Shown piece by piece: positions 5,301 to 36,068 of a stretch of 64,000 nucleotides of DNA. This DNA is from Chitinophagaceae bacterium (GTDB taxonomy: Bacteria; Bacteroidota; Bacteroidia; Chitinophagales; Chitinophagaceae). Below the pieces are notes generated by a model, which worked only from the letters and a program-made list of their open reading frames with translations, was not told the DNA's origin and searched no databases. Made by a program: the position numbers and the translations under genes. The first letter of the stretch is position 1; every line of letters begins with the position of its first letter. The DNA is taken from NCBI GenBank assembly GCA_044233655.1, contig JBIIJQ010000004.1, positions 16,079 through 80,078 of the forward strand, written 5' to 3'.

Positions 5301-5916
5301 AATTAATACCTGTATAACTTATTTTTATTTTTTTTACGTCCGCACCTGGATTTACAATTAAATCATATTTTACATTTCCAGATTCTGAATAAATATGGGC
5401 ATCAATGCCATCATAGAGGTCTTTATAGTTAACTGCTAATACAGGATATATTTCAGATTTCCACTTAGATGCATCGTTTCCAAGAAAATAATTATAATAA
5501 TGCTTTTGTTTTTTTTCTACAGAAACATCATGTACTTGATTAGAATTTACAAAATTCATATCATATACATGGTAATTGAAAGTCTGAATGCTTGGTGTAG
5601 GAGTTGAGTGAAGCTGTCTTCTTAATTCATGAAAGTCAGCACCTAATTGCATAATTCTAAACCCACTGCGTTTAAGAAATATATCGCCATTTGGCGTATT
5701 GCCTCGATAAATAAAATCGCCATCCCATTGTCCTTTATTTTCGATATACTCTACAGTAGAATAATTATGTGCATGCTGTGCATATAAGATTTGGCTTGAT
5801 AAAAAAACCAATAACACAAAAGGGATTAAAAATATCTTTTTCAAAGCAAACGATTTTGTAAGTAAATATAAAGATTTTATTGCGAAAGTCAATAATCTAT
5901 AGACGAAAAAAAACAA
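2317..5916 (-). CDS. Large T9SS cargo protein with beta-propeller-like repeats, several PKD-like domains and a gliding-motility-type (type B) C-terminal sorting domain
   Basis: 1199 aa. PKD-type motifs recur (YSWDFGDGNTS, WNWIFGDGNTS, YLWDFGDGTTD). The C-terminal VPTGFSPNGDGINDVVYVKGYG...FRIFNRWGEKVF is the CHU_C/type B sorting signature. The true start is possibly the TTG at 5844 (LKKIFLIPFVLLVF signal peptide). Confidence 0.85.
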   Translation of the reverse strand: MFFFVYRLLTFAIKSLYLLTKSFALKKIFLIPFVLLVFLSSQILYAQHAHNYSTVEYIENKGQWDGDFIYRGNTPNGDIFLKRSGFRIMQLGADFHELRRQLHSTPTPSIQTFNYHVYDMNFVNSNQVHDVSVEKKQKHYYNYFLGNDASKWKSEIYPVLAVNYKDLYDGIDAHIYSESGNVKYDLIVNPGADVKKIKISYTGINSIKLENNKLIITTSVGTNTELAPYAYQFINNTKKEVPCKYVLNEENQVSFQFPKGFNDDVQLIVDPVLIFSSLTGSTADNWGFTATYDTSGNFYSGGIAQGLGYPLIAGAFQATYGGSGIGGGGFGCDAVISKFNAAGSALIYSTYLGGVDNDQPHSIVVDNNGNLAIAGRTYSNNFPTSAGCFDNTANGAADLFVTKLNSTGTALIGSTYIGGNGADGENITPVYTTLLSLKHNYGDDARSEIITDANNNLWIAASTSSVNFPTAQPNQAALSGSQDGVIFELNNTCSNLIWSTYWGGSANDACYVLSFDKTNPNTLYVAGGTESSNLTVTPGTLNPSYQGAIDGFLLKFNASTHALQAGTFIGTNSYDQVYGVQTDDSNHVYVMGQTTGPYPVTAGVYTNPSSSQFVTKINNTLTSILASTVYGSGTNFTTNISPVAFLVDKCGSIYVSGWGGPTGGNPGNTIGMPTTAGAIQSTTDGSDFYFIVFSKNFQNLLYATFFGQSGGGGEHVDGGTSRFDPNGVIYQAICAACGGSQLFPTTVGAWSTTNGSLNCNLGAVKIDFQLQNPNAIASAAGPLKGCVPFAVTFQNNSSSSTTYSWDFGDGNTSNAFAPTHTYTTAGIFTVTLVASNPNGCTATSDTNQIVVTVVDDSIFANFTVTKVDSCGPYTATITNTSTTNNGPPGPGVIYTWDLGNGSSFSGPNPGLIPYPSASTYTITLTMNDTNACNNPSVKTIVLDFISSVVLSAFDMPDSVCLPALVNFIDQSTNATTWNWIFGDGNTSTQANPSNTYNSAGTYTVFLVSGNPATCNLFDTSQKVINVFPSPVADFSWTPNPPEPNTPNQFTNLSTGAKRYLWDFGDGTTDTITNPVHVYDKDGTYNVCLTATNEYGCVDTVCKPVRGIVLPLVDVPTGFSPNGDGINDVVYVKGYGIDKMTFRIFNRWGEKVFESTRKSDGWDGRYKSIMQEMEVYGYTLSVTFFDGTKDFKKGNITLLK

Positions 5917-17204: not shown

Positions 17205-17255
17205 GGAAAGTTTTTTCATTTTTTTGAAGCTGAGCAATAGATACATTATGTAGCT

Positions 17256-17300
17256 ACTTCGCGCTATCCGTCGCGCACGGCGCTTCCTCCTATCGCGGCT
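17256..17300. repeat. GC-rich palindromic element at the left edge of the island
   Basis: ACTTCGCGCTATCCGTCGCGCACGGCGCTTCCTCCTATCGCGGCT has an inner hairpin CCGT-CGCGC-ACGG and outer arms CGCGCTA / TATCGCG. It is about 65% GC in an AT-rich spacer. Its 3' part resembles the head of the B family. Confidence 0.4.
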
Positions 17301-17439
17301 AAAATTCAGGGACATGTTCTTTATTGAGCTGATGAATGCAAAAGGCTTTGCTTAAAAGCTAAAGTCTTCCATTTATTTACACATTTAAGGATTCTTCAAA
17401 ACTGAATATTATGATTATCAGACGCTATTTTTGATAGCA

Positions 17440-23861: not shown

Positions 23862-23960
23862 TTTTTATCTTTTATTAAGTCTGTTGGTTTTATCTTTATT
23901 TGATTCACAACCGTATAAATTTAAGTTGCTAAGTTAGATTAAATTTTTTATCCTTTGGTT

Positions 23961-24049
23961 TTCCGCCGCAATTGGTGTTATCACCAATTGCTATTAAAAA
24001 ATTGTTGGCAAAAACACCAGCAATGGCGGAAAACCAGCAATGGCGGAAA
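23961..24049 (+). repeat. A-family structured repeat, copy A1
   Basis: TTCCGCC-GCAATTGGTG-TTAT-CACCAATTGC...AACACCAGCAATGGCGGAA. It has a perfect 10-bp inner palindrome (23968-23991), terminal arms TTCCGCC/GGCGGAA, and a 17-nt tandem duplication ACCAGCAATGGCGGAAA x2 (24016-24049). Confidence 0.75.
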
Positions 24050-24834: not shown

Positions 24835-24867
24835 ATAATGCTGTTCGTGGTGAGTATTAATCACTCC

Positions 24868-25071
24868 CTACATCCCCTTCTTTATTTCCGCTTGCAGTTT
24901 GGCCAATTGTGCAGGTGTAAGCTTCGCTATATCGGGCAATATATTGATAGTTTCCTTGGGCTTAAGTGCTTGTAAGGGATGTGCGGGTACGTCCTTGATA
25001 GGATCGTCGGGTACCCGTTCTACGAAGCATATTTGCTTCGTAGGTGTATTCTGTTGCGTTCCGCAACACAA
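24868..25071 (-). CDS. Small protein sharing the C-terminal 47-aa module of the adjacent HTH regulator but lacking the HTH
   Basis: 67 aa. The last 47 aa are identical to those of 25103-25444, while the DNA differs at 13 positions, all synonymous. That argues it is a maintained gene. Confidence 0.6.
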   Translation of the reverse strand: MCCGTQQNTPTKQICFVERVPDDPIKDVPAHPLQALKPKETINILPDIAKLTPAQLAKLQAEIKKGM

Positions 25072-25102
25072 ACGAAATCATGTTAGATAGCGTATTCACT
25101 CC

Positions 25103-25444
25103 TTACATCCCCTTCTTTATTTCCGCTTGAAGTTTTGCCAATTGCGCAGGCGTAAGCTTCGCTATATCGGGCAATATATTTATGGTCTCTTTGGGCTTAA
25201 GAGCTTGCAAGGGATGCGCGGGTACATCCTTTATAGGATCGTCGGGTATCCACTCAAACAAGTCGGAGGGTGTACACCATGCTGCCTCGCAAATGGTATG
25301 CAATACATCGATGGGTATACGTTGAGAAGGTTTGTGGAGTAGCTTGTAGGCCATGTGATGGTAAATGCCATTTGCTTTAAGCCAAGTATAAGGTTTATCA
25401 ACCCCCTTAGACTTTAATAGCTTTTCAATACATAGGATAAACAT
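25103..25444 (-). CDS. XRE/Cro-C1-type helix-turn-helix transcriptional regulator
   Basis: 113 aa. IEKLLKSKGVDKPYTWLKANGIYHHMAYKLLHKPSQRIPIDVLHTICEAAWCTPSDLFEW fits the HTH_XRE pattern (the ...CTP.DLF ending is typical). Confidence 0.7.
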   Translation of the reverse strand: MFILCIEKLLKSKGVDKPYTWLKANGIYHHMAYKLLHKPSQRIPIDVLHTICEAAWCTPSDLFEWIPDDPIKDVPAHPLQALKPKETINILPDIAKLTPAQLAKLQAEIKKGM

Positions 25445-25497: not shown

Positions 25498-25552
25498 GGA
25501 TTTAAACACACAAAAAAATCATTCTACATGGGTGAATTTCTGTTCTAAAATT

Positions 25553-25720
25553 GCAATGCGTAATCTTAGTAGCGCAATGCGTACTCTTGGTACTGCAATG
25601 CGTACTCTTGGTAGTGCAATGCGTACTCTTGGTAGTGCAATGCGTACTCTTAGTACTGCAATACGTACTCTTAGTACTGCAATGCGTAATAGTAGTATTA
25701 AAGTGCGTAATAGTAGTATT
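25553..25720. repeat. Iteron-like array: 7 x 21-bp tandem repeat plus 1 degenerate unit
   Basis: GCAATGCGTACTCTTGGTAGT consensus. Units start at 25553, 25574, 25595, 25616, 25637, 25658 and 25679, with a degenerate unit at 25700. It is centred in the divergent intergenic region. Confidence 0.9.
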
Positions 25721-25827
25721 GAAATGCTCTAAAACCATTATGAACAGAGGGTTTCGAGAGTTTTAATTTTATGATTTTATTTAACAAAAAAGTCTGTGCA
25801 CATTGAAGTTGAATGTAAAAAAATAAA

Positions 25828-25835
25828 TAAATTTG
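25828..25835 (+). promoter_or_regulatory. Candidate -7 box (TAAATTTG) for the 316-aa orphan gene
   Basis: TAAATTTG lies 25 nt upstream of the ATG at 25860. It overlaps the ORF-track start at 25833, which favours 25860 as the real start. Confidence 0.3.
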
Positions 25836-25859
25836 GTTTCACTTAAAAAATTTACAAAC

Positions 25860-26810
25860 ATGAATGACGTACAAACAAACCGAGTTAACTCGCTCATTAA
25901 ATCGAGTGATTTCCTAGACGACCACGCAAGCGAATTATCCGCAGTGGCACAATTAGCACCTCTTGCACTTGAATTGAAAAATCTTATCAGCGACATTGAA
26001 ACAGCAGCCGGTAAAGGTTCGCTTGACCTTACAGGTGTAGCCGAACAAAAAAGTATTACAAGGCAAAACTTGATTGACAGTATGATGAAAGTCTCGCGCG
26101 GTGCAGCGGCTTATTATTTGAGTGTCAATCAACTTCGCGAATTGCGTATGGTAGAATTTACACCCAATGAGTTGACCAAAAAGCGTGACAATGACCTGTA
26201 TGCTACTGCAAAGGAAATGCACCAAATGGCAACCGTAGATGGCGCAAATTATATTGCCGTTTCGGCTCCTGATATTACCATGCTGGATGATGTGAAAGAG
26301 AAATTCTTCGATTACATACAAGACCCTAAGCGTGAAGTAGAAATAGCAGCGCAACAAAATGCATTGATAGACCCATACATTACGCAGGGTATGGAAATCC
26401 GCAAAAAGCTAGACATCTATATGCAAACCTTTATCGCTACCAATGCCCTACTCTACAACGAATGGAATGCATCACAAAGCATAGACGATACAGGGGCTAA
26501 TACATCTGCATCCTATACCGTTACACTCATGATACCTCCTACATCTATCAAAAGTATAGACTACAGCAGTGTAGCACTTCAAGGCAATACCGAAATCAAA
26601 CTCATCAATAATTCGGCTGCTGAGTTGGTCTATGGTTTTGGCAACGACTCCAACAGCTTTGCTGGTACGCAAACAGTATACTCCAATACGCAAAAACGTC
26701 AATCTGCTTCGAGCTTGGGTTACAATGCACTCTCTGCTATCATACTCAATATTCAAAACAATCAAGCCGTAGACCTCGAATGCACGATTGAGATTTATGA
26801 CATGGGTTAA
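25860..26810 (+). CDS. Hypothetical protein (316 aa from the ATG at 25860; the track ORF starts at 25833)
   Basis: Helical N-terminal half and Ser/Thr/Asn-rich beta-looking C-terminal half. No motif recognised. Followed by a stem-loop. Confidence 0.55.
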   Translation: MNDVQTNRVNSLIKSSDFLDDHASELSAVAQLAPLALELKNLISDIETAAGKGSLDLTGVAEQKSITRQNLIDSMMKVSRGAAAYYLSVNQLRELRMVEFTPNELTKKRDNDLYATAKEMHQMATVDGANYIAVSAPDITMLDDVKEKFFDYIQDPKREVEIAAQQNALIDPYITQGMEIRKKLDIYMQTFIATNALLYNEWNASQSIDDTGANTSASYTVTLMIPPTSIKSIDYSSVALQGNTEIKLINNSAAELVYGFGNDSNSFAGTQTVYSNTQKRQSASSLGYNALSAIILNIQNNQAVDLECTIEIYDMG

Positions 26811-27052: not shown

Positions 27053-27463
27053 ATGGCACAGATTTTTGACAAATTCCCTTCTAATATGGGAGAAACTTTA
27101 GGAAAAATAGAAAGAAACCCTTTTACATTCAATTTTACACGATTTGAAGTTTGGAGGGGTGGTCAAATAATTGACGCAGATATTATTTTCGGCACCATTA
27201 AAGGAACAGTCTTTGCTGAAATTCTATTTGTTAATGTTAAATGTGAGAGAATTTCAAAATACACATTAAGTGAATTTTCATTATGGCAAATTTCTACAAA
27301 CAATGAAAGGGTTATGTGGAGCAAAGATATTTTTGGCAATGAGGAAAAATACATAAATTGCTATCCTGATATTATTTCACTTTTTTACCAATTGGGAATA
27401 TTATCTAAAATGTCTTTTGCTATAAGAAACCCTGGAACTTTAATTGAATTTTTCATTGATTAA
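27053..27463 (+). CDS. Hypothetical small cytoplasmic protein (136 aa)
   Basis: An intact ORF and first gene of a two-gene unit. No TM segment or signal peptide. A candidate -7 box TATATTTG lies at 26902-26909. Confidence 0.5.
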   Translation: MAQIFDKFPSNMGETLGKIERNPFTFNFTRFEVWRGGQIIDADIIFGTIKGTVFAEILFVNVKCERISKYTLSEFSLWQISTNNERVMWSKDIFGNEEKYINCYPDIISLFYQLGILSKMSFAIRNPGTLIEFFID

Positions 27464-27488
27464 TAAAGCAAATAAAAACAATTTTCTA

Positions 27489-27845
27489 ATGACAGAATAC
27501 ATTTACAAAATCGAAAAAAATACTTTTAAAACTTATTATATTTTAAAAGAAAAATTCGATAATAAATTTGATGAAAATTATAGATTCTTGAAGATTATTC
27601 AAGAAGGGAATAGCGCATCATCGGAATTCATTGATACCCAAAAACCAATGAATCTATCTGATAGCAAAATGTTTGTAAAACTAGAAATTAAATTTATGTA
27701 CCCTAATAAAAAGCATGAAGTGATTTTCTTTTTTATTGACAACTCTTTTGGTAGTGTAAAAGAAATTACTACCAAATATATTGGAGAATTTAATTTTCAA
27801 AATGGGTTTCAAAATTTAATCAAGCAAGCTCTAGAGAATAAATAA
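27489..27845 (+). CDS. Hypothetical small cytoplasmic protein (118 aa from the ATG at 27489; alternative TTG start at 27444 overlaps the upstream gene)
   Basis: An intact ORF ending in TAA TAA TAA immediately before repeat B1. Confidence 0.5.
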   Translation: MTEYIYKIEKNTFKTYYILKEKFDNKFDENYRFLKIIQEGNSASSEFIDTQKPMNLSDSKMFVKLEIKFMYPNKKHEVIFFFIDNSFGSVKEITTKYIGEFNFQNGFQNLIKQALENK

Positions 27846-27852
27846 TAATAAA

Positions 27853-27908
27853 TTCCGTTCTCGCCGTGTCTCCAGCCTCTGCGACTCGGCGACTTAGAAA
27901 ACGAAATC
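27853..27908 (+). repeat. B-family GC-rich hairpin repeat, copy B1
   Basis: TTCCGTTCT-CGCCGTGTC-[TCCAGCCTCTGC]-GACTCGGCG-ACTT-AGAAAACGAAATC. A 9-position inner stem (8 pairs), a 12-nt asymmetric loop, and an outer stem CGTTCT/AGAAAACG. Confidence 0.8.
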
Positions 27909-27936
27909 GTACTTACATTCCTGTGATATATTATGT

Positions 27937-28008
27937 TTCCGCTGCAATTGATGTTATCACCAATTGTCATTTAAAAAATTGTTGGTAAAAACACCTACAT
28001 TGGCGTAA
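27937..28008 (+). repeat. A-family structured repeat, copy A2
   Basis: TTTCCGCTGCAATTGATGTTATCACCAATTGTCATTTAAAAAATTGTTGGTAAAAACACCTACATTGGCGTAAA is about 85% identical to A1. Confidence 0.75.
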
Positions 28009-28016
28009 ATAGATTT

Positions 28017-28024
28017 TATATTTG
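28017..28024 (+). promoter_or_regulatory. Candidate -7 box (TATATTTG) for the three-gene J-domain operon
   Basis: Matches TAnnTTTG, 78-105 nt upstream of the first gene. Confidence 0.25.
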
Positions 28025-28128
28025 ATAATGCATGTAACAAACTGTCAAAGCCACTTTACTAACTTTTTTGGTTTTTTGGGTGTAAATTAGCTTCTATATG
28101 TGTGTTGGCAATAAAACAGAACACTAAA

Positions 28129-28545
28129 ATGATTTGGATAATTATTTTTTTTACAGGCTTGATAATTTTAATTGGAACATTTATCCAAAATTCAAAATTG
28201 CGTAACAAATATAATGATGAACTTGACCTTGCTTTAATCACTTTAACGCATTCGACAAATCGAATGGAAGAAATTTCTAAGCCAGTTTTTGAACTAATTT
28301 TGAAACAATATGGCGATAGATTTGCTTCAAATGTAGCCAATAGAAAAATTTGCGAAAAAATGCCATCCGAGCTTTTAATTCTTAGTTGGGGTAAACCTGG
28401 CGACATTAAGTCTGAATATTACAAAGGTTCAAAATCAGAAAGTTGGTTTTATGACAGTTTTGTTAATCGACTTGGCAATAAAAAATATCGAACCGAAGTA
28501 TATATTGAAAATAATAAAATAATTGGTTGGAGAGACTTATCTTAA
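28129..28545 (+). CDS. Membrane-anchored protein with a BamE/SmpA-OmlA-like C-terminal fold (tentative)
   Basis: N-terminal TM segment MIWIIIFFTGLIILIGTFI. The C-terminus reads ...SELLILSWGKPGDIKSEYYKGSKSESWFYD...EVYIENNKIIGWRDL. The track start at 28102 is a GTG. Confidence 0.5.
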   Translation: MIWIIIFFTGLIILIGTFIQNSKLRNKYNDELDLALITLTHSTNRMEEISKPVFELILKQYGDRFASNVANRKICEKMPSELLILSWGKPGDIKSEYYKGSKSESWFYDSFVNRLGNKKYRTEVYIENNKIIGWRDLS

Positions 28546-28549
28546 TATT

Positions 28550-28810
28550 ATGGCAAATTGTAATAACTGTGGATGCTACATCCCAACTAGCGAAAGAGTG
28601 CTAAAAAGAGAAATGTATAGTGGAACTTCCCAAAGAACTAACTATGGAAAACGAATTAGTTTTGGAACTTCACGTTACTATTCTATGAAATCTGTTTGTG
28701 AAAATTGTGCTAGGCAAATAGACCAATCCAATGCAGAGCAAAACAAGACAATAATGGTTGTTCTAATGGTTCTTGGGATTATAATAGCACTTTATTTTTT
28801 GTTAAAGTAA
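28550..28810 (+). CDS. Tail-anchored zinc-ribbon-like protein
   Basis: CNNCGC...CENCARQ (two CxxC pairs) and a C-terminal TM segment IMVVLMVLGIIIALYFLL. The ATG is 4 nt after the upstream stop. Confidence 0.5.
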   Translation: MANCNNCGCYIPTSERVLKREMYSGTSQRTNYGKRISFGTSRYYSMKSVCENCARQIDQSNAEQNKTIMVVLMVLGIIIALYFLLK

Positions 28811-28812
28811 CT

Positions 28813-29982
28813 ATGAAGAATTTTTACGAAGTATTAGGGTTGTATCAAAACGCAACCGATGAAGAAATAAAAACAGCTTACAGAAAGCTATCATTAAAGT
28901 TCCACCCAGACAAAAATGATGGCGATAAATATTTTGAAGAGTGGGCAAAGAAAATAAATGAAGCCTACGAAACTCTTGGCAACAGAGATAAAAAAAAATC
29001 TTATGATGAAACTTTAAAAGCCAACAACAATCAAAAAAGCAATACAAACTCATACAGTTCTCAATCTTCAACATCAAACCACTCTTCTACATATGAATAC
29101 GATGTATTAAGCCAAATTAAAAAACTAACCCCTGAATTTTTAAATGCAAAAGCTGGTTTAGCAGATGCTCAATATAATTACAACAACATAGCGGCACAAT
29201 CCGTTCCAAACAAATTTTCTACAACTAGAATTCTTTTCATTATTTTGTTATTTATAGTATCAGCATTTGGTTTTAAAAAGAGTTTCTTAAATCAGCTGAC
29301 AATAGCAGTAGAAAACATCAAAACTAATGACAGTAAACCTAAATCAAACAAAAAGTCAAAACCTATTTTAGAGGACATTGTTGGTGAGCCAATTGAAAAC
29401 ATAGGAAATTCTATCTTGTACACAATATATAGTGGTGTTGAGCAAAATGAAACCAATGAAATTTACGCAGTTCCAATTGTTGTTTTTTATAACAATCAGT
29501 ATTTAGACCCACCAACTTGTGAATTTGGTACTACTGAACAAAAAGCAATTGATGAATGCGAAAAAGCAAAAGAAATATTATTGCCTTCAGTAAATTCAGG
29601 TTCTACTCTTTTTGTTTTAGACAATGGCAAACAATCATATGACATTAGTGTTTTAGATACTAAAGAATTTGGGTACAGCGACTGGACAAGATATTCAGCT
29701 CACATAAGTATAAAGCCGAAAACATCTATTCTTACAGACAATCCAAAAATTGGTACTAATAGACTTACCACTATTAAAGACAGACCAACTTTACCAAAGC
29801 GAAAAGACCCCGAAGGAAATATTTTAAGCGATAAACTACTTTCAAAAGTTGACATTAATGGAGATGGAATGCCAGAACTTATTTATGAATGTTCAGACTA
29901 CGAAGGGACTTTTTATCAAATATACACCAACAAAAATGGCACTTGGACTCTCGTTTACGAAGGAGGTTATCAAGGAGTTTAA
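28813..29982 (+). CDS. Membrane J-domain (DnaJ-like) protein with an uncharacterised C-terminal domain
   Basis: YEVLGL...EEIKTAYRKLSLKFHPDKN is a J domain with an intact HPD. It is followed by an S/N-rich linker, the TM segment ILFIILLFIVSAFGF, and a C-terminal domain containing DINGDGMPELIY (FG-GAP/VCBS-like). The ATG is 2 nt after the upstream stop. Confidence 0.75.
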   Translation: MKNFYEVLGLYQNATDEEIKTAYRKLSLKFHPDKNDGDKYFEEWAKKINEAYETLGNRDKKKSYDETLKANNNQKSNTNSYSSQSSTSNHSSTYEYDVLSQIKKLTPEFLNAKAGLADAQYNYNNIAAQSVPNKFSTTRILFIILLFIVSAFGFKKSFLNQLTIAVENIKTNDSKPKSNKKSKPILEDIVGEPIENIGNSILYTIYSGVEQNETNEIYAVPIVVFYNNQYLDPPTCEFGTTEQKAIDECEKAKEILLPSVNSGSTLFVLDNGKQSYDISVLDTKEFGYSDWTRYSAHISIKPKTSILTDNPKIGTNRLTTIKDRPTLPKRKDPEGNILSDKLLSKVDINGDGMPELIYECSDYEGTFYQIYTNKNGTWTLVYEGGYQGV

Positions 29983-29997
29983 CAACTTTTCTCTAAT

Positions 29998-30068
29998 GGT
30001 TGGTGTCCCACCAAACATTCCGTTCTCTTCGAGTCTTCAGCTTCTGGGACACGGCGATTTAAGAAACG
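29998..30068 (+). repeat. Composite repeat: C-family left arm (C1) fused to B-family copy B3
   Basis: GGTTGGTGTCCCACCAAACA (contains TTGGTG-TCC-CACCAA), then TTCCGTTCTCTTCGAGTC-[TTCAGCTTCTGG]-GACACGGCGATTTAAGAAACG. Confidence 0.75.
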
Positions 30069-30218
30069 TCGTCATGAATTAAGTTCTCGTGTATTCAATT
30101 ATGATCTTATTTTATCTTTACTTCATGACAGGTGGCACATAACATGAAAAATGTTGACTTTGATTGCAAGTAGCATGTCGATTATAAAAATTGATAGTCA
30201 AAAATTTATTTCCATGCT

Positions 30219-30262
30219 GCAAGCCGCGGAGTCCCCTAGGCGGGAGACTATGCGGGACGAAA
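30219..30262 (-). repeat. B-family repeat, copy B4 (minus orientation)
   Basis: The reverse complement reads TTCGTCCCGCATAGTC-[TCCCGCCTAGGG]-GACTCCGCGGCTT. It lies just downstream of the minus-strand RCC1 gene. Confidence 0.7.
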
Positions 30263-30300
30263 TAACATAGGAAATTTTTTACATAGAAATTTCATTTATT

Positions 30301-31671
30301 CTATTCCTTAATTAATTTAAAAACCTTATTCTCTAATTTGATAAAATAAATCCCTTTTTTCAAAGTACTTACTTGCACTGGTGAATTAAAATAGAATATT
30401 CCCGACTGAATTATTTGGCCTAATGAATTTGCTATTTCATATTTGATATCTTCATTTTGGTATAAACCATAGACAGATAATTCATTAGTAAAAGGATTCG
30501 GATATAATATAATTTTTCCGTCGGAAATATTGTGAATGTAACTGGGAGAACAATTTAAGGTATTTATTATTGCAGGCATATAATGGTTAACATTAGTGCC
30601 ATCACCAAGTGAACCATAAAAATTTTGGCCCCAGGACCACAGCGTACCATCTTGTCGAACGGCAAAGGAATGAGTGCTACCTCCACTAACTGACACCCAA
30701 TTGCTTGTAATGCCTATTAATGTGGGAACATTTTTATCTAGTTGTGTACCATCGCCAAGACGACCTTCATTATTATAACCCCACGCCCAAAGTGTACCGT
30801 CTTGTTTAATCGCAAGAGAATGATGGATGCCCGCGCTTAGACTTTGCCAATTTGTAGCTACTCCAATGTGAGTAGGAATATACTTTTCAGCATTAGTACC
30901 ATCACCGAGCTCACCGTAAAAGTTCAGGCCCCAAGCCCACAGTGTACCATCTTGCTTGATAGCAAGTGAATGGTTATTTCCGCCGCTTATAGATTTCCAA
31001 TTTGTGTCTAAACTTATTTGAGTCGGCATATTTCTATCGATGTTTGTGCCATCTCCGAGCTTCCCTCCAGCATTATTGCCCCACGCCCAAAGTGAACCGT
31101 CTTGTTTAATAGCAAGAGAATGACGGATGCCTGCACTTATACTTTGCCAATTGCTGCCAATTCCTATTTGAGTTGGAATAATTTTGTCTAAATTTGTGCC
31201 ATCCCCGAGTTGTCCATAAGAATTATTACCCCAAGACCACAAGGTGCCGTCTTGTTTAATTGCGAGTGAGTGACCATTTCCGGCACTAATTTGTTGCCAG
31301 TTAGTATCCATACCTATTTGAGTTGGTATATTCTTATCTATATAAGTACCATCTCCTAAGCGACCATCAGCGTTATGTCCCCAAGCCCATAAGGTACCAT
31401 CATGCTTAATTGCGAGAGAAAACCCATTGCCAGCGCTAACATATTTCCAATTATTATCTACCCCAATTTGGGTTGGAACGTTTTTATTAACATAGGTGCC
31501 ATCTCCTAACTCCCCATAAATATTGCCACCCCAAGCCCAAAGAGTACTGTCATTTTTGATTGCAAGAGAATAGAATTGACCTGCATCAATATATCGCCAA
31601 CATTGCGCTTTTACTTTGCCCCCTATTATCAATAAAAAGTAACAAAGAATAATTTGTAAAATGTATTTCAT
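30301..31671 (-). CDS. RCC1-repeat beta-propeller protein with a T9SS type A C-terminal sorting domain
   Basis: Seven or more repeats of the form HSLAIKQDGTLWAWGxNxxGxLGDGT. Signal peptide from the ATG at 31671 (MKYILQIILCYFLL). C-terminus YPNPFTNELSV...GIYFIKL. Confidence 0.85.
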   Translation of the reverse strand: MKYILQIILCYFLLIIGGKVKAQCWRYIDAGQFYSLAIKNDSTLWAWGGNIYGELGDGTYVNKNVPTQIGVDNNWKYVSAGNGFSLAIKHDGTLWAWGHNADGRLGDGTYIDKNIPTQIGMDTNWQQISAGNGHSLAIKQDGTLWSWGNNSYGQLGDGTNLDKIIPTQIGIGSNWQSISAGIRHSLAIKQDGSLWAWGNNAGGKLGDGTNIDRNMPTQISLDTNWKSISGGNNHSLAIKQDGTLWAWGLNFYGELGDGTNAEKYIPTHIGVATNWQSLSAGIHHSLAIKQDGTLWAWGYNNEGRLGDGTQLDKNVPTLIGITSNWVSVSGGSTHSFAVRQDGTLWSWGQNFYGSLGDGTNVNHYMPAIINTLNCSPSYIHNISDGKIILYPNPFTNELSVYGLYQNEDIKYEIANSLGQIIQSGIFYFNSPVQVSTLKKGIYFIKLENKVFKLIKE

Positions 31672-31852
31672 ATTTAAAATGTTTTTATTTTTTTTCAATT
31701 GTACTATCTTATTATTTTTTTGCGGGTAGTTTAGATGAACTTTTAAATATAAACAATTATATTGTATCTCAGCATTCATACCTAATAAATTTTTGCCATA
31801 GCTAAAGTTAACCCATTAAATAATCTAGCCCCGAACTATCTTCTTTTGAGCT

Positions 31853-31908
31853 TCCGTTCTCGCCGTGTCTCCAGCCTCTGGGACTTTGCGACTTAGAAAA
31901 CGAAATCG
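31853..31908 (+). repeat. B-family repeat, copy B2 (orphan; no plus-strand ORF precedes it)
   Basis: About 93% identical to B1 over 56 nt, with weaker similarity (about 60%) over roughly 25 further nt. The inner stem is partly degraded (GACTTTGCG). Confidence 0.8.
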
Positions 31909-32096
31909 CAATTGCATTCCACTTATAGAATGATTATGTATTTTTATTTATCATTACTGAATGGCAGTACGAAAAAAATACCTTATCAAATTGGCATTTT
32001 TTTTTATTACATATTTAATATGAAAGATATTAATTATGATCATAGGCTAGTAGCATAAAATGAATAAATGTCCACAAAATATAAGGATGAACATAT

Positions 32097-32148
32097 CGTT
32101 CGGCGAGTCGCGGAGTCCCCGAGGCGAGAGAGTCCGCGAGGATAGAAG
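32097..32148 (-). repeat. B-family repeat, copy B5 (minus orientation)
   Basis: The reverse complement reads CTTCTATCCT-CGCGGACTC-[TCTCGCCTCGGG]-GACTCCGCG-ACTCGCCGAACG. It abuts the stop of the minus-strand gene 32150-32767. Confidence 0.75.
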
Positions 32149-32149
32149 T

Positions 32150-32767
32150 CTAGTCTTTAAAGTCTTTAAAAGCCCTTTCATTATTATTTATACCCAAATA
32201 GATATAATGTAAAGTGTTTACTCTTTGTTCAATAATTTCATTCACGTTAGGCCAAATATACAGCAACGAATTAGCCAAACCGGTACTATACAATCCTAAG
32301 AGAAAATCCTTTTCCTTAGTATAGTAATCCAACCATCTACGTTGAGAAATGATCAACTGCTTTTTATATTCTTCACTTAATATACCCAATGCTAACTTGT
32401 AGTATTTATTTAATAAAAGATCATATGCATTGTTGTAAAAAATAAATCCTTCATTTTGTGCCTGTGCTGAAGTGCCTTCTGCAATAATCTTATAGAATGC
32501 ATTAATAGAAATTGTGTCCTCCATAAACACAAAATCTTCTCCATCATTATCTTTTGACAAAGAGCTACTCTTTATCTTAATATCTTTACGAGTAGTTGCG
32601 ATAATATTCTTCAAGTCTACGTTTGAATAATCCTTAAAACTGGTAGTATTTGTAAATAAAACCTCTATATCAGAATTAAATTGATTTATAGGCTTAGTTT
32701 GAGAGATGACTGATTCCGAAACCATAAATAAAATAGAAAAACATAAAATTCGAATATTTACTTTCAT
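32150..32767 (-). CDS. DUF1311/LprI-like (lysozyme-inhibitor-type) secreted protein
   Basis: Signal peptide MKVNIRILCFSILFMVSESVISQ (the track ORF extends to 32824). LLNKYYKLALGILSEEYKKQLIISQRRWLDYYTKEKDF fits the LN..Y......L......L...Q..W..Y pattern of DUF1311. Confidence 0.55.
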   Translation of the reverse strand: MKVNIRILCFSILFMVSESVISQTKPINQFNSDIEVLFTNTTSFKDYSNVDLKNIIATTRKDIKIKSSSLSKDNDGEDFVFMEDTISINAFYKIIAEGTSAQAQNEGFIFYNNAYDLLLNKYYKLALGILSEEYKKQLIISQRRWLDYYTKEKDFLLGLYSTGLANSLLYIWPNVNEIIEQRVNTLHYIYLGINNNERAFKDFKD

Positions 32768-32871
32768 GCTTTCTGATTCCGAAAATTTCATAATAGTTGG
32801 TTTTAATAATACAAATGTATACAAGGTTTAAAACAAATGCAATTACATTTTTCATTTTGATAGAATCACCA

Positions 32872-32946
32872 TCTCTCCGAAGTTTATGGCTTAGTGAGGT
32901 CTATGTTCCCTGTTTGCCACAGGCATTTAGTTGGCTTTGCCAACAT
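32872..32946 (+). repeat. D-family structured repeat, copy D2
   Basis: ATCTCTCCGAAG...TATGTTCCCTGTTTGCCACAGGCATTTAGTTGGCTTTGCCAACAT. Confidence 0.7.
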
Positions 32947-33081
32947 TACTTGCATTTCATCTAGAGTGTTTAATTTATTCCAAATAATTTACTTTTCGAT
33001 TGGTTTTATTTATCTTCGATTGACGCAGTCGATTGAGTTTTTTCACAGACTGAGGTTGTACGGTTAATAGAAAATAACGAC

Positions 33082-33852
33082 ATGAGCAAGAAAACAATAA
33101 TTGATTCGATTATAGTGATATTGACATTTTCGATTGCCTTTTATGGTAAACGGATACTGGCTGAATATTATACTATTTCCATTTCTTCTGCGTATTTGAA
33201 AATTGCCTATTCGTATTTATGGTGGGTATTACCAACAGCATTAATTACCGGTCTATTATACGGAGTCAGTAATATATTTTACAATATCGGTATTCAAACA
33301 GGCCTTATCAGAGGGCTTTTATTTTCAATTATAACAGTATTGCCTATGTTTCTGAGCTCTGCTATCATTGGACGCATAGGTGCAGATTTAAATGTGTTAC
33401 ATCTGGTTCATCAAACAATTGTTGCAGGGTTGATGGAGGAATATCTTTTTAGAGGTTTTTTATTTGGATTATTATTCAGAAAATTAGGCTGGGGATTTAT
33501 TCCTGCTTCAATATTAGGTGCCTTTATTTTCGGATTAGGACATATTTATCAAGGCTCTACGTTTCTGGAAACCATGGGGGTCTTTTTCATAACTTCAATT
33601 GGGGGTGTTTGGTTTGCATGGTTATACATTGAATGGAATAATAACTTATGGGTTCCCATTTTCCTTCATATTCTAATGAATCTTTCCTGGGGATTGTTTG
33701 AAGTAAGTAGTAACGCATTGGGAGGATTTTATACAAACCTGTTTAGAATAATTACAATTGCGTTAACAATAATAATAACCATTAAATACAATCAGAAAAA
33801 AGGATTAAGAATCAACAGCAAGAATTTGATGGTAAACAATAACAACCGCTAA
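33082..33852 (+). CDS. CPBP family intramembrane glutamic endopeptidase (CAAX protease/Abi family)
   Basis: 256 aa, polytopic. Contains the EEYLFRGFLF, FGLGHIYQG and HILMN motifs. Confidence 0.85.
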   Translation: MSKKTIIDSIIVILTFSIAFYGKRILAEYYTISISSAYLKIAYSYLWWVLPTALITGLLYGVSNIFYNIGIQTGLIRGLLFSIITVLPMFLSSAIIGRIGADLNVLHLVHQTIVAGLMEEYLFRGFLFGLLFRKLGWGFIPASILGAFIFGLGHIYQGSTFLETMGVFFITSIGGVWFAWLYIEWNNNLWVPIFLHILMNLSWGLFEVSSNALGGFYTNLFRIITIALTIIITIKYNQKKGLRINSKNLMVNNNNR

Positions 33853-33946
33853 CAGGCTGAAAGAAATTGGCTTCATTGTATGCCTAATGAAAATTTATTT
33901 TACATTCGAAGTGTGGTTTTACAAAGAAAGATTGTGCTTCTCAATT

Positions 33947-33997
33947 GGTTGGTATCCCACCAAACATAAGTGGATTTCGTTAGGTGGGACACCAACC
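33947..33997 (+). repeat. C-family hairpin repeat, copy C2
   Basis: GGTTGGTATCCCACCAAAC-[ATAAGTGGATTTC]-GTTAGGTGGGACACCAACC: a 19-bp stem with 2 mismatches. Confidence 0.8.
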
Positions 33998-34147
33998 TTT
34001 AGGTGAGTTGCTTTTATTATGAATTGTAAGAATTGCATTTTATATTCGTTTAAACAAGTAACAATTTATTATTGGAACTTTGCTTCCTACTGTGCGTGTT
34101 TAATGGGAGAAAAGTAGGTGCTATAAGTAAGTTACCTAAAATTTCGT

Positions 34148-34789
34148 ATGACAAAATACTTCATCATATTTATTCTAATTCTTACTTCTTGTGATAATAG
34201 AAAGACAGAACAAAACTTTATTATACCTAGTAATGAAGAAGTAGGAAAAATTATTGAAGCTATTATTTATTCAAATAGTTTGTCATTGTCAAGTCAAATA
34301 TTCAAAGTAGAAATTGACAAAGTAAACAAACCGAAAAGAAAGAATTGGATACCAATCTATACTCCAATGTCAGTGGACTTGAGGAAACTTCATGTTGCTT
34401 TACCAGATAAAGGGGTAAAGGTGCAACCATTAGACATGAACATTGTGTTGATTCCTAGACTCTTTAAAATTGATGGAATAGGAAAGGAATTTATAGACCA
34501 TGCGGACTCATCATATTTATTGTTCCAAAATGAAGCAATTACAGAGTTTAGAATTAGTGATGAATTAGCAAGAAAGTTAAATACCACAAATTCTATTGAA
34601 CAAGAGAATAAAAGAAGCAAAGGAGAAAGCTACAGGTTTTATGAATTGACGATTCCTATTTTATCATCTGATATGAATAAGGCTTACGTAGAATTAACTC
34701 TATATAGTTCGAGAGCAGAAGCTCTATATTTGGAAAAAATAAATTATAAATGGACAATTATACGTAGAATTGGACTATGGATATGCTGA
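34148..34789 (+). CDS. Hypothetical lipoprotein
   Basis: 213 aa with lipobox ILILTSC. No recognisable domain. Confidence 0.55.
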   Translation: MTKYFIIFILILTSCDNRKTEQNFIIPSNEEVGKIIEAIIYSNSLSLSSQIFKVEIDKVNKPKRKNWIPIYTPMSVDLRKLHVALPDKGVKVQPLDMNIVLIPRLFKIDGIGKEFIDHADSSYLLFQNEAITEFRISDELARKLNTTNSIEQENKRSKGESYRFYELTIPILSSDMNKAYVELTLYSSRAEALYLEKINYKWTIIRRIGLWIC

Positions 34790-34885
34790 CAAAAACTGTA
34801 GGTAACACTTTGCAATAGCAAGCTGGACTTTGTAGCTTTTCAATCATTTGGTTCTTTAATAATCTTTTGTACTTTTACAAAGCTT

Positions 34886-34927
34886 TTGTTCTCTGAACTC
34901 CCAGCCTTCTGCAGCAAAGGAACCGTT
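34886..34927 (+). repeat. Degenerate B-family repeat, copy B6
   Basis: TTGTTCTCTGAACTCCCAGCCTTCTGCAGCAAAGGAACCGTT retains the head GTTCTC and the loop motif TCCCAGCCTTCTGC. Confidence 0.45.
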
Positions 34928-35919: not shown

Positions 35920-35989
35920 AATATCTGTACCTGACATGGGTAACTGATACCCAACTCCATTTTCAAAAACAGAAAAATCCTTTTCTATT

Positions 35990-36040
35990 GGATGGTTTCC
36001 CACCAAACATTATTTGGATTTTATTTGGTGGTCACCAACC
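35990..36040 (+). repeat. C-family hairpin repeat, copy C3 (right edge of the island)
   Basis: GGATGGTTTCCCACCAAACATTATTTGGATTTTATTTGGTGGTCACCAACC contains the perfect TTGGTG-GT-CACCAA. Confidence 0.75.
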
Positions 36041-36068
36041 GATAGGTAAAAACTTGTACTAAGTTATC

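What the first reader, a model, noticed from the sequence alone, without database searches (positions are those of the whole stretch)
27853..34927. B-family GC-rich hairpin: a conserved asymmetric loop, a maintained stem, and orientation that follows the strand of the preceding gene
There are six copies of 45-56 nt at about 60% GC in a roughly 33% GC background.
- **Shared architecture:** head (T)TCCGTTCT, a 9-position inner stem, a 12-nt loop with the non-palindromic motif TC(C/T)C-N-GCCT, the return arm, a 4-nt bulge, and an outer arm ending AACG.
- **Orientation:** the asymmetric loop fixes it unambiguously. B1, B3 and B6 (+) follow plus-strand genes. B4 and B5 (-) follow minus-strand genes.
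- **Stem conservation:** pairing potential is kept despite sequence change. B1 has CGCCGTGTC/GACTCGGCG and B5 has CGCGGACTC/GACTCCGCG, which includes a C:G to G:C swap at one stem position.
A conserved loop with a co-varying stem and transcript-sense polarity points to an element read as RNA or as single-stranded DNA by a specific factor. A simple terminator is less likely because no T-tract follows.
Basis: seen in the sequence. Interest (0 to 1): 0.7.

Follow-up and report, generated by a model that had tools for sequence, protein, structure and literature searches.

The report
Bacteroidota REP hairpins with RAYT transposase
The GC-rich hairpins are copies of a small repeated DNA element (a REP) that in related Bacteroidota genomes brackets a RayT-type tyrosine transposase gene, so this is a new example of a known kind of element, not a transcript signal.

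Summary
Five of the six reported copies are real (27856-27897+, 30021-30062+, 30219-30260-, 31855-31896+, 32103-32144-). The sixth (34884-34927) is not detectable by any model.

The "12-nt loop" is mostly paired: a 9-bp lower stem, an invariant bulged T, a 4-bp upper stem and a CCT triloop, preceded by an unpaired 5' foot TTnn(T/G)TC(C/T).

The claimed gene-strand polarity fails. B3(+) lies upstream of a minus-strand gene. Over 194 copies from about 85 Bacteroidota contigs, the upstream gene is co-oriented in 78 cases and opposed in 64.

About 200 copies were found in Chitinophagaceae, Cyclobacteriaceae, Cryomorphaceae/Flavobacteriales and Chryseolinea. They often sit as convergent doublets.

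Twenty of 150 neighbouring ORFs belong to one ~200-aa HUH/Tyr family. It matches NCBIfam REP-associated tyrosine transposase (E 1e-16 to 1e-20) and E. coli TnpA_REP, PDB 4ER8 (E 2e-7). All ten complete genes with both flanks on the contig have hairpin(+) on the left and hairpin(-) on the right.

The window has no RAYT gene. Its 31852-32147 doublet is a ~296-nt gene-less shell found 84-85% identical in two other contexts.

Verdict: a REP/REPIN-RAYT system of Bacteroidota with an atypical, non-GTAG foot. It is a new member of a known kind, and mobilisation is inferred.

The parts
27853..27897 (+). REP copy B1: 5' foot TTCCGTTCT plus bulged hairpin CGCCGTGTC-T-CCAG-CCT-CTGC-GACTCGGCG. A singleton, 8 nt after the stop of ORF 27444-27845. 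The subfamily-specific 3' extension runs to 27928.
   Evidence: Model R1 gives 49.6 bits, E 1.8e-13. Direct repeat family D14. B1 plus the following hairpin match L021 4822-4676 at 81% over 155 nt.
30018..30062 (+). REP copy B2, the most diverged (two stem mismatches). It is the left member of a convergent doublet with Bx.
   Evidence: R1 gives 37.0 bits, E 2.2e-9. Family D14.
30219..30262 (-). REP copy Bx, the right member of the doublet B2/Bx (156 nt between hairpins). It lies about 40 nt after the stop of the minus-strand RCC1/T9SS gene 30301-31779.
   Evidence: R1 gives 40.1 bits, E 2.2e-10. ORFs and Pfam.
31852..31896 (+). REP copy B3, the left end of the ~296-nt gene-less shell. It lies upstream (5') of the minus-strand gene 30301-31779, so it does not follow a plus-strand gene.
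   Evidence: R1 gives 49.0 bits, E 3e-13. ORF list.
32103..32147 (-). REP copy By, the right end of the shell, with its foot on the outside. It lies just after the stop of the minus-strand ORF 32150-32824.
   Evidence: R1 gives 48.9 bits, E 3.2e-13.
31852..32147 (.). Composite doublet B3...By: a non-autonomous unit with a REP at each end and feet outward. Its interior looks like an internally deleted RAYT gene. A weak N-terminal remnant MAVRKKYL..FFIT starts at 31961, and a C-terminal remnant NMKDINYD lies at about 32008-32052.
   Evidence: The whole unit is 84.6% identical over 298 nt to L021 and 83.6% over 281 nt to L013, between different genes. The right half matches L043 7522-7402, which is the RAYT 3' end plus hairpin (77% over 127 nt, E 6e-21). 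The protein remnants are individually weak (E 0.2-0.4).
30018..30262 (.). Composite doublet B2...Bx (245 nt) between two convergent genes. It has the same architecture but is more decayed.
   Evidence: only the ends match relatives. Pair statistics.
34884..34927 (+). It is not a detectable family member and is at best an unrecognisable relic.
   Evidence: No hit (filters off, E<=10) or 76 (nhmmer --max, E<=100).

Best explanation
The B hairpins are REP-type elements (repetitive extragenic palindromes) of a Bacteroidota genome.

**Anatomy.** Each copy is about 40 nt:
- an unpaired 5' foot, TTnn(T/G)TC(C/T)nn;
- an 8-9-bp lower stem whose sequence drifts by compensatory change;
- a nearly invariant apical module, GTC-T(bulged)-CCCG-CCT-CGGG-GAC.

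**Associated gene.** In related genomes two such copies in inverted orientation, feet outward, bracket a ~200-aa HUH/Tyr gene of the RAYT (TnpA_REP) family.

**Proposed mechanism (inferred).** By analogy with E. coli TnpA_REP (PDB 4ER8) and the IS200/IS605 transposases, the enzyme binds the folded hairpin on one DNA strand when that strand is single-stranded. It reads the asymmetric bulge, the apical module and the foot. It then cuts and rejoins near the foot. This spreads single REPs and convergent doublets (REPIN-like units) into intergenic DNA.

**In this window.** The window carries no RAYT gene, so its copies are passive. There is one singleton and two convergent doublets. One doublet (31852-32147) is a ~296-nt shell of a RAYT unit that lost its gene and still spread to at least three sites in two genomes.

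**Shown:** the repeat family, the structure and covariation, the extragenic location, the doublets, and the RAYT association and its geometry.
**Inferred:** binding, cleavage and mobilisation by the RAYT, and the strand that is read.
For: **The family is real and widespread.** About 200 full-length model hits of at least 30 bits were found in about 85 Bacteroidota contigs, clearly separated from core-only chance hits of 20-28 bits in high-GC contigs.

**Structure.** 93.9% of cells pair, 7 of 13 pairs carry double compensatory changes, and 0 of 500 shuffles reach the covariation score. An unbiased flank test agrees.

**Location.** 172 of 194 copies lie outside long ORFs.

**Clustering.** Copies form mosaic clusters, for example 9 copies in about 0.9 kb of L163.

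**Pair geometry.** Convergent pairs dominate adjacent pairs (42, against 19 divergent and 27 tandem). Their gaps are bimodal: 15-275 nt for doublets and 584-756 nt for pairs holding a gene.

**Neighbouring genes.**
- Y1_Tnp is the top Pfam family among 150 neighbouring ORFs.
- Twenty of them form one family with the motifs MPNHxH and QKLxYIHxNP.
- That family matches NCBIfam NF047646, REP-associated tyrosine transposase, at E 1e-16 to 1e-20 over its full length, against E 0.03 to 1e-4 for the IS200 model.
- A profile of the family hits 4ER8 (TnpA_REP) at E 1.9e-7.
- There are at least 3814 homologues, and JGI names them RayT.

**Flank geometry.** All ten complete genes with both flanks in the locus have hairpin(+) on the left and hairpin(-) on the right, whichever strand the gene is on.

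**Independent test.** RAYT loci chosen by protein from cultured Panacibacter and Sediminibacterium carry the hairpins on both flanks, and in Panacibacter nowhere else in 20 kb.

**Co-variation of REP and RAYT.** The stem variant tracks the RAYT clade: ATC/GAT with the L037/L054 clade, AGA/TCT with the L143/L155 clade.

**Literature.** A Bacteroidetes TnpA_REP subclass (2.6) flanked by atypical, non-GTAG secondary structures is described in PMC6006769.
Against: - No experiment or population data here show movement.
- The defining GT[AG]G foot of canonical REPs is absent.
- The RAYT hits fall below NCBIfam's equivalog cut-off (59-74 bits against 80).
- One of three independently chosen RAYT loci (Terrimonas, L164) has no B hairpin. 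It has a different inverted repeat instead.
- Genome-wide copy number and RAYT copy number could not be measured. One contig holds two RAYT paralogues that are 84% identical.
- The near-invariance of the apical module across several orders is unusual for REPs, which are normally lineage-specific. It could reflect an additional host-level constraint.
- The loci were found through the hairpin itself, so the counts carry ascertainment bias.
- ORFs were called crudely.
Confidence: 0.85

Rival explanations
1. The hairpin is primarily an RNA element in 3' untranslated regions: a T-tract-less terminator, an exonuclease block or a processing site read in the sense of the upstream gene.
For: - B1, B2, Bx and By each lie 8-40 nt after a co-oriented stop codon.
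- Among 47 singletons with a neighbour within 300 nt, the upstream gene is co-oriented in 15 and opposed in 5.
- G.T pairs outnumber A.C pairs 31 to 17 on the foot strand.
- E. coli REPs are known, from the general literature, to stabilise upstream mRNA as a secondary effect.
Against: - B3(+) is upstream of a minus-strand gene.
- Family-wide there is no polarity: the upstream gene is on the same strand in 78 cases and opposed in 64; the downstream gene in 69 and 74.
- Near gene 3' ends, sense and antisense orientations are about equal (15 against 11).
- Copies occur in both orientations in dense clusters and as convergent doublets.
- No copy has a T-tract or a terminator-like call.
- No Rfam family matches.
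- The G.T excess may come from the orientation of the model used to collect the copies.
- No RNA data exist for this organism.
Confidence: 0.07
2. The hairpins are the left and right ends of an autonomous IS200/IS605-type insertion sequence, and the short copies are its PATE/MITE derivatives. They would not be part of a domesticated REP-RAYT system.
For: - The flanked gene is a Y1 HUH enzyme with weak Pfam Y1_Tnp hits.
- Gene-less shells spread like MITEs.
- Two paralogues lie on one contig.
Against: - The flanking hairpins are inverted relative to each other (10 of 10). IS200/IS605 ends carry their hairpins on the same strand (established knowledge of IS608/ISDra2).
- The protein matches the RAYT model far better than the IS200 model (E 1e-20 against 0.03).
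- It has the YIHxNP tyrosine motif and the ~200-aa length of class 2 TnpA_REP proteins (PMC6006769).
- The two paralogues are only 84% identical, which is not IS-like identity.
Confidence: 0.05
3. The hairpins are attC-like recombination sites that delimit gene cassettes in an integron-like or CALIN array. This was hinted at in the reader's proposed checks.
For: - The copies lie in a patch of small genes of unknown function (24-36 kb) next to a type I restriction-modification system.
- Metagenome contigs from two samples diverge from the window exactly at 31850, the left edge of B3.
- The hairpin is imperfect, with an extrahelical base.
Against: - The copies are in mixed orientation and form convergent doublets with no gene between them.
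- The terminal boxes read GTT...AAC, not the RYYYAAC...GTTRRRY order of attC.
- No integrase domain was found among the annotated neighbours in the window or among the top families near 150 copies.
- The associated enzyme is an HUH transposase, not a tyrosine recombinase.
Confidence: 0.02
4. Each hairpin is the 3' end of a small RNA gene with its own Bacteroidetes-type promoter (TAnnTTTG box 80-95 nt away).
For: A conserved GATATTAAYTTTGATAAAAGG motif lies 80-95 nt from the By-type hairpin in the window, L013, L021, L043, L017 and L002.
Against: - In L043 that motif is the coding sequence of the last residues of the RAYT protein (..MNMKDINFDKREIK*), so its conservation is inherited from the gene.
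- It is absent from most other copies.
- No conserved ORF or RNA family spans the hairpin.
Confidence: 0.01

Closest known systems
REP / REPIN elements with their RAYT (TnpA_REP) transposase: E. coli REP/BIMEs with YafM (PDB 4ER8) and Pseudomonas fluorescens REPINs
   Same: - Short extragenic imperfect palindromes with an unpaired 5' foot.
- Dispersed copies, often clustered in mosaics.
- Frequent inverted doublets.
- A Y1 HUH gene bracketed by two inverted copies.
- Stem sequence that tracks the enzyme clade.

   Different: - The foot is TTnn(T/G)TC(C/T), set 3-4 nt from the stem, not GT[AG]G at the stem base.
- The hairpin has a fixed bulged T and a conserved apical mini-helix.
- The apical module is almost invariant across several Bacteroidota orders, whereas classical REPs are species- or genus-specific.
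- Doublet spacers reach 200-275 nt.
TnpA_REP subclass 2.6 of Quentin et al. 2018 (PMC6006769), equal to Bertels group 5: Bacteroidetes RAYTs flanked by 'atypical secondary structures'
   Same: - Same phylum.
- Protein length about 180-200 aa, with an NH[LIV]H HuH motif and a YIHxNP tyrosine motif.
- No GTAG foot.
- Copies of the flanking structure occur elsewhere in the genome.

   Different: - Membership of that exact subclass was not tested by phylogeny.
- Our family has W-K where the paper lists WQ, and a variable residue in YIH-x-NP.
- The B hairpin motif is not among the subclass 2.6 sequences in the paper's Table S1 as held.
- The paper calls the structures 'weaker', whereas this one is a strong 13-bp hairpin.
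IS200/IS605 family (IS608, ISDra2) subterminal hairpins and their PATE derivatives
   Same: - A Y1 HUH enzyme recognises imperfect hairpins with extrahelical bases in ssDNA.
- Gene-less derivatives multiply.
   Different: - The two flanking hairpins here are inverted, not on one strand.
- The protein fits the RAYT model, not the IS200 model.
CGTC-tagged REPs (Di Nocera et al. 2013, PMC3733652), reported in Bacteroidetes among other phyla and said to lack a dedicated transposase
   Same: An unpaired tag of the form CGTC/TGTC at one end and an 8-9-bp stem. Many B feet read CGTC, TGTC or GGTC.
   Different: - Per the paper, CGTC REPs have A:T pairs at the first two stem positions, 4-5-nt loops and a CCA tail.
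- B has G:C-rich basal pairs, a bulge with a second helix, no conserved tail, and an associated RAYT.
- The paper's Bacteroidetes consensus could not be read because its figures are not held.
Integron attC sites
   Same: Imperfect hairpins with extrahelical bases that are read as ssDNA and lie after genes.
   Different: Box order, mixed orientation, gene-less doublets, no integrase, and an HUH enzyme instead.

Membership tests
REP / REPIN-RAYT system (REPtron) | A short (about 20-40 nt) imperfect palindrome that forms a stable hairpin | tested here: met
   A 13-bp bulged hairpin in about 31 nt plus a 9-nt foot. 93.9% of cells pair and 7 pairs carry compensatory changes.
REP / REPIN-RAYT system (REPtron) | Extragenic location | tested here: met
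   172 of 194 non-redundant copies lie outside ORFs of at least 100 aa. All 5 window copies are intergenic. ORF calling was crude.
REP / REPIN-RAYT system (REPtron) | Many dispersed copies per genome | tested here: inconclusive
   There are 5 copies in this 64-kb window, all within 4.3 kb. One related MAG has copies on 5 contigs. Extra read depth and loose ends at the copies appear in lake metagenomes. No whole genome could be scanned.
REP / REPIN-RAYT system (REPtron) | A conserved 5' GT[AG]G tetranucleotide at the foot of the hairpin | tested here: not met
   The logo of 149 copies gives a foot of TTnn(T/G)TC(C/T)nn, with no GTAG or GTGG. The same exception is described for Bacteroidetes subclass 2.6 (PMC6006769).
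REP / REPIN-RAYT system (REPtron) | A RAYT (class 2 Y1 HUH) gene flanked by two REPs in inverted orientation | tested here: met
   All ten complete genes with both flanks available fit. The protein family matches NF047646 at E 1e-16 to 1e-20 and 4ER8 at E 1.9e-7. Two of three protein-selected loci also fit. No such gene lies in the window itself.
REP / REPIN-RAYT system (REPtron) | Inverted doublets (REPINs) as a frequent unit | tested here: met
   There are 31 convergent pairs with gaps of 15-275 nt, including four consecutive doublets in L149 and two doublets in the window.
REP / REPIN-RAYT system (REPtron) | The RAYT binds and cleaves the REP as ssDNA | not testable with these tools
   This needs purified protein and oligonucleotide assays.
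IS200/IS605 insertion sequences | Left-end and right-end hairpins on the same strand, with a TnpA of the IS200 type in near-identical copies | tested here: not met
   The flanking hairpins are inverted. The IS200 model scores E 0.03 to 1e-4, against 1e-20 for the RAYT model. Paralogues are 84% identical.
Integron attC sites | R''-L''...L'-R' with RYYYAAC...GTTRRRY, co-oriented sites in an array, and an IntI integrase | tested here: not met
   The box order is reversed. Orientation is mixed and doublets hold no gene. No integrase appears among the neighbours.
Intrinsic (Rho-independent) terminators | A GC-rich hairpin followed by a T-tract, oriented with the upstream gene | tested here: not met
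   No B copy is called terminator-like on either strand. There is no orientation bias.
Any Rfam RNA family | A match to a curated covariance model | tested here: not met
   There are 0 hits in the window at gathering score. No hit at B positions appears in 8 related loci at E<=1.

The most novel reading that the evidence does not exclude
The apical module GTC-T-CCCG-CCT-CGGG-GAC is almost invariant across Chitinophagales, Cytophagales and Flavobacteriales, while the lower stem drifts freely. This could mean the Bacteroidota REP-RAYT pair is an old, vertically kept system under host-level selection. The hairpin might, for example, have a cellular role in DNA or RNA metabolism, or the recognition code centred on the bulged T might be unusually rigid. 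In that case it would not be just a lineage-specific selfish repeat. A side consequence would be that REPs with a CGTC/TGTC-like tag do have a dedicated transposase, contrary to the 2013 survey.
Probability: 0.2. Interest if true: 0.55.

Novelty: new member of a known kind. Interest (0 to 1): 0.3.

Why it matters
- **Annotation.** The result turns an unexplained GC-rich hairpin into an annotatable element for freshwater and soil Bacteroidota. These repeats break metagenome assemblies: contigs end at them.
- **A usable model.** It gives a concrete consensus and a covariance model for a REP family that Rfam and the 2018 RAYT survey table do not list.
- **A model system.** The family pairs with a large RAYT family of at least 3814 proteins, so it offers a second, non-GTAG system for studying how HUH enzymes read hairpins. 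Specificity probably sits in the bulged T and the foot.
- **Limits.** The finding does not reveal a new kind of system.

Tried and rejected
1. **Small RNA with its own promoter.** The conserved TAnnTTTG-like box near By-type copies is the last codons of the RAYT gene in L043. Rejected.
2. **Small peptide across the hairpin.** ORFs exist (32060-32212 in the window) but the hairpin is read in different frames in different copies. Rejected.
Only 50% of cells pair. Rejected.
4. **attC or integron sites.** The box order and orientation are wrong and there is no integrase. Rejected.
5. **CRISPR-like or tandem arrays** (L163, L149, L152). These turned out to be mosaics of copies in both orientations with irregular spacing.
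6. **Rfam.** No match at gathering score or at E-value threshold.
7. **RNA-seq evidence.** No RNA run holds the locus.
8. **Empty-site search.** Contigs from two lake samples diverge exactly at 31850, but the continuation is not elsewhere in the window. No clean presence/absence allele was obtained.
9. **RAYT gene in the window.** None was found.
10. **IS110 neighbours.** Two neighbouring ORFs carry IS110-family domains, but my attempt to locate them picked other genes. Left open.
11. **Strand of folding from G.T against A.C counts** (31 against 17). Too weak, and biased by the model's orientation.

Full report
**1. What is in the window**

The window is a Bacteroidota chromosome segment from a lake-water metagenome.
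- Twenty-four lake-water runs hold the stretch, wholly or in part (word share 1.00 down to 0.40), and no RNA run does.
- GC content is about 31-37% around the finding.
- The window encodes a T9SS-sorted RCC1-repeat protein, a type I restriction-modification system at 17.4-23.9 kb, and FtsH among others.

Reading 27.5-35.3 kb shows five clear GC-rich elements:

| Copy | Coordinates | Strand |
|---|---|---|
| B1 | 27853-27897 | + |
| B2 | 30018-30062 | + |
| Bx | 30219-30262 | - |
| B3 | 31852-31896 | + |
| By | 32103-32147 | - |

A degenerate pattern written from these copies finds exactly these five with up to 3 mismatches, against 0.00 expected in shuffles.

A covariance model built mostly from relatives (R1; 5 of its 71 training sequences are these window copies) also finds exactly these five. 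Scores are 37-49.6 bits, E 2e-9 to 2e-13, with filters off over all 64 kb.

It is also missed by an nhmmer profile of B1-B3 at E<=100. I count five copies, not six.

**2. Structure**

I scanned two public collections with core patterns.
- In one-genome-per-species contigs, the pattern hit Chitinophagaceae, Cyclobacteriaceae, Cryomorphaceae/Flavobacteriales, Chryseolinea and unclassified Bacteroidota MAGs. It also gave obvious chance hits in high-GC genomes.

The consensus from these copies is CGCAGAGTC-T-CCCG-CCT-CGGG-GACTCTGCG.

After the 9-bp lower stem comes an invariant unpaired T. Then comes a 4-bp helix in which C:G is replaced by A:T in the window's plus-type copies (CCAG...CTGG). The loop is CCT.

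On 71 distinct sequences:
- the 13 pairs are 93.9% paired;
- 7 pairs show changes on both sides;
- the covariation score is 0.246, against 0.084 in shuffles (0 of 500 reach it) and at most 0.062 when the 3' partners are slid.

That set had been filtered for flank pairing, so I repeated the test without the filter.
- Among hits to the 18-nt core alone in contigs under 53% GC, 75 of 86 have at least 4 of 6 Watson-Crick pairs in the six unspecified flanking positions.
- In high-GC contigs the figure is 3 of 50.

A logo of 149 copies shows that conservation starts sharply 9-10 nt before the stem, with TTnn(T/G)TC(C/T)nn. It stops at the last stem base.

**3. Orientation and context**

B3(+) has no plus-strand gene before it and lies 5' of the minus-strand gene 30301-31779.

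The five copies are better described as one singleton (B1) and two convergent doublets: B2/Bx with a 156-nt gap and B3/By with a 206-nt gap.

Model R1 recovered about 200 full-length copies of at least 30 bits in the fetched loci. They are cleanly separated from core-only chance matches of 20-28 bits.

For 194 non-redundant copies:
- 172 lie outside ORFs of at least 100 aa;
- the upstream gene is on the same strand in 78 and the opposite strand in 64;
- the downstream gene is on the same strand in 69 and the opposite strand in 74.

Among 47 singletons there is a mild preference for gene 3' ends over 5' ends (26 against 15). Next to 3' ends, sense and antisense orientations are similar (15 against 11).

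No copy in the window is terminator-like on either strand. No Rfam family matches.

Copies often pile up in one intergenic region in both orientations, for example nine copies in about 0.9 kb of L163.

Among adjacent pairs within 800 nt, convergent pairs with feet outward dominate: 42, against 19 divergent and 27 tandem. Their gaps are bimodal, at 15-275 nt and 584-756 nt.

**4. The associated gene**

I scanned the 150 ORFs nearest to copies against Pfam in one batch.
- The most frequent family was Y1_Tnp (IS200-like HUH transposase). Two ORFs carried IS110-family domains.
- All-against-all phmmer showed that 20 of the 150 ORFs are one family of about 200 aa. It has an MPNHxH (HUH) motif near residue 58 and an invariant QKLxYIHxNP tyrosine motif.
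- Individually the proteins give only weak Pfam hits.
- They match NCBIfam NF047646, 'REP-associated tyrosine transposase', at E 1e-16 to 1e-20 over the whole model. This is below the 80-bit equivalog cut-off. The IS200 model reaches only E 0.03 to 1e-4.
- A profile of the family finds E. coli TnpA_REP (PDB 4ER8) at E 1.9e-7 as the only significant solved structure.
- The family has at least 3814 members at E<=1e-10. JGI names them 'REP element-mobilizing transposase RayT'. Cultured carriers include Terrimonas, Panacibacter, Danxiaibacter and Sediminibacterium.

Geometry is consistent. All ten complete genes whose two flanks lie within the locus have a hairpin(+) on the left and a hairpin(-) on the right, between -42 and +257 nt from the ORF, whichever strand the gene is on. 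This accounts for the 584-756-nt mode of convergent pairs.

The lower-stem variant tracks the protein clade. ATC/GAT goes with the L037/L054 clade, AGA/TCT with the L143/L155/L101 clade, GGG/CCC with L003 and GGA/TCC with L122.

**5. Independent test**

The loci above had been fetched through the hairpin. I therefore fetched three RAYT loci by protein identity from cultured Chitinophagaceae and searched them with R1, filters off.
- **Panacibacter ginsenosidivorans:** a hairpin(+) ends 39 nt before the gene, and four more copies lie within 470 nt after it. All matches with E<=1 in the 20.6-kb locus lie within about 470 nt of the gene.
- **Sediminibacterium roseum:** copies lie at -116 nt (+), +8 nt (-) and +110 nt (+).
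- **Terrimonas alba:** no B hairpin. The flanks carry a different inverted repeat.

In the first two genomes the apical loop differs (TGAAA, AGA). The GTC-T-CC...GG-GAC frame with the bulged T is kept.

**6. What the window copies are**

The window has no RAYT gene (tblastn).

The B3...By unit (31852-32147) is conserved as a whole in two other places, between unrelated genes. It is 84.6% identical over 298 nt to L021 and 83.6% over 281 nt to L013. It has therefore multiplied as a unit.

Homology among the three copies begins at the TT of the left foot and ends at the outer edge of the right foot.

Its right half matches the RAYT 3' end plus hairpin of L043, L017 and L002 (77% over 127 nt, E 6e-21). 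I first took the conserved motif GATATTAAYTTTGATAAAAGG for a Bacteroidetes -7 promoter box. In L043 it encodes the last residues of the RAYT (..NMKDINFDKR).

Translation of the interior gives an N-terminal remnant MAVRKKYL..FFIT on the B3 side and NMKDINYD on the By side. They are collinear and in the gene's orientation. Each is statistically weak (E 0.2-0.4).

The unit is best read as a RAYT unit that lost about 500 nt of coding sequence and went on spreading in trans. B2/Bx has the same layout but is more decayed. B1 is a singleton followed by a hairpin of another family.

**7. Mechanism: what is shown and what is inferred**

Shown:
- a repeat family with a covarying bulged hairpin and an asymmetric foot;
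- extragenic, clustered copies, often as convergent doublets;
- no gene-strand polarity;
- a cognate RAYT-type gene bracketed by inverted copies;
- stem variants that track RAYT clades;
- a gene-less shell present at three sites.

Inferred from the established biochemistry of TnpA_REP and IS200/IS605 TnpA:
- the enzyme binds the folded hairpin on one strand of transiently single-stranded DNA;
- it uses the foot and the bulge for register;
- it cleaves and rejoins near the foot.

Which strand is read is open. The excess of G.T over A.C pairs on the foot strand (31 against 17) is weak and biased by how the copies were collected.

**8. Comparison with what is known**

Quentin et al. 2018 (PMC6006769) describe TnpA_REP subclass 2.6, which equals Bertels group 5.
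- It is mostly found in Bacteroidetes.
- Mean protein length is 179 aa, with the motifs NH[LIV]H and YIH[QN]NP.

Our family fits that description in outline. I did not place it phylogenetically. It has W-K where the paper lists WQ. The B motif is not among the subclass 2.6 sequences in the paper's Table S1 as held here.

Di Nocera et al. 2013 (PMC3733652) describe CGTC/TGTC-tagged REPs, some of them in Bacteroidetes, and state that they lack a dedicated transposase. Many B feet read CGTC or TGTC. However, the A:T basal pairs, 4-5-nt loops and CCA tail of that class are not seen here.

**9. Verdict**

It is wrong about transcript-sense polarity.

The element is a REP/REPIN family of Bacteroidota with its RAYT. 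It is a new member of a known kind.

The one feature I would not call ordinary is the near-invariance of the apical module across several orders.

**Limits**
- ORFs were called crudely.
- Loci were found through the hairpin, apart from the three protein-selected ones.
- No whole genome was scanned.
- There are no RNA or biochemical data.

Noticed in passing
window 23956-24036 and 27936-27990: A second hairpin repeat family, TTTCCGCYGCAATTGRTGTTATCACCAATTG (80% identical copies; the first sits in a larger 32-nt inverted repeat). Its core TTGGTGTTATCACCAA is identical to a Runella slithyformis REP listed for RAYT subclass 2.6 in Table S1 of PMC6006769. It is probably another REP family.
   Followed up: partly
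window 29989-30018, 33938-34004, 35981-36047: A third repeat family, TTCTCnAnTGGTTGGTnTCCCACCAAACAT. Two copies form 15-bp hairpins (GGTTGGTATCCCACC...GGTGGGACACCAACC). One abuts B2 directly. Its nature is untested.
   Followed up: no
window 25510-25740: About eight to ten tandem copies of a 21-nt unit (TGCAATGCGTACTCTTGGTAG) lie just upstream of ORF 25833-26810, which has no Pfam domain.
   Followed up: no
window 24858-25027 and 25093-25262: A 170-nt direct repeat (88% identical, 235 nt apart) in a locally GC-rich stretch with no annotated gene.
   Followed up: no
window 17243-17314: An isolated GC-rich stretch (CTTCGCGCTATCCGTCGCGCACGGCGCTTCCTCCTATCGCGGC) between the lipoate-ligase-like gene and the type I restriction R subunit. 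It is unrelated to B.
   Followed up: no
window 31850 (left edge of B3); also 31824 and 31782: Contigs from lake-metagenome runs X4 and X7 match the window up to 31850 and then continue with unrelated sequence (TTTGTAGCAGAATTC...). That sequence is not elsewhere in the window. Strain variants therefore break synteny exactly at the REP boundary.
   Followed up: partly
L037 6043-6111; L002 6697-6784 and 1804-1907: Flavo-1 RNA (RF01705) matches lie in two REP-bearing loci, at 45.5 bits (above the gathering score) in L037 and 32.1 and 29.8 bits (below it) in L002. They are not at the hairpin positions.
   Followed up: no
neighbour ORFs of alignment A3 (coordinates not resolved): Two ORFs next to hairpin copies carry IS110-family transposase domains (DEDD_Tnp_IS110 and Transposase_20, E about 1e-22). 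IS110-family elements are known to target REPs in other bacteria. My attempt to locate them failed.
   Followed up: partly
L054 113-661 and 5761-6369: Two RAYT paralogues that are 84% identical lie 5 kb apart on one contig. Between them are four regularly spaced (152-nt) weaker hairpin copies at 5299-5796.
   Followed up: partly
window 61209-63960: Eleven tandem 240-nt repeats (60-93% identical) run to the window's end. They are probably a repeat-domain coding region.
   Followed up: no
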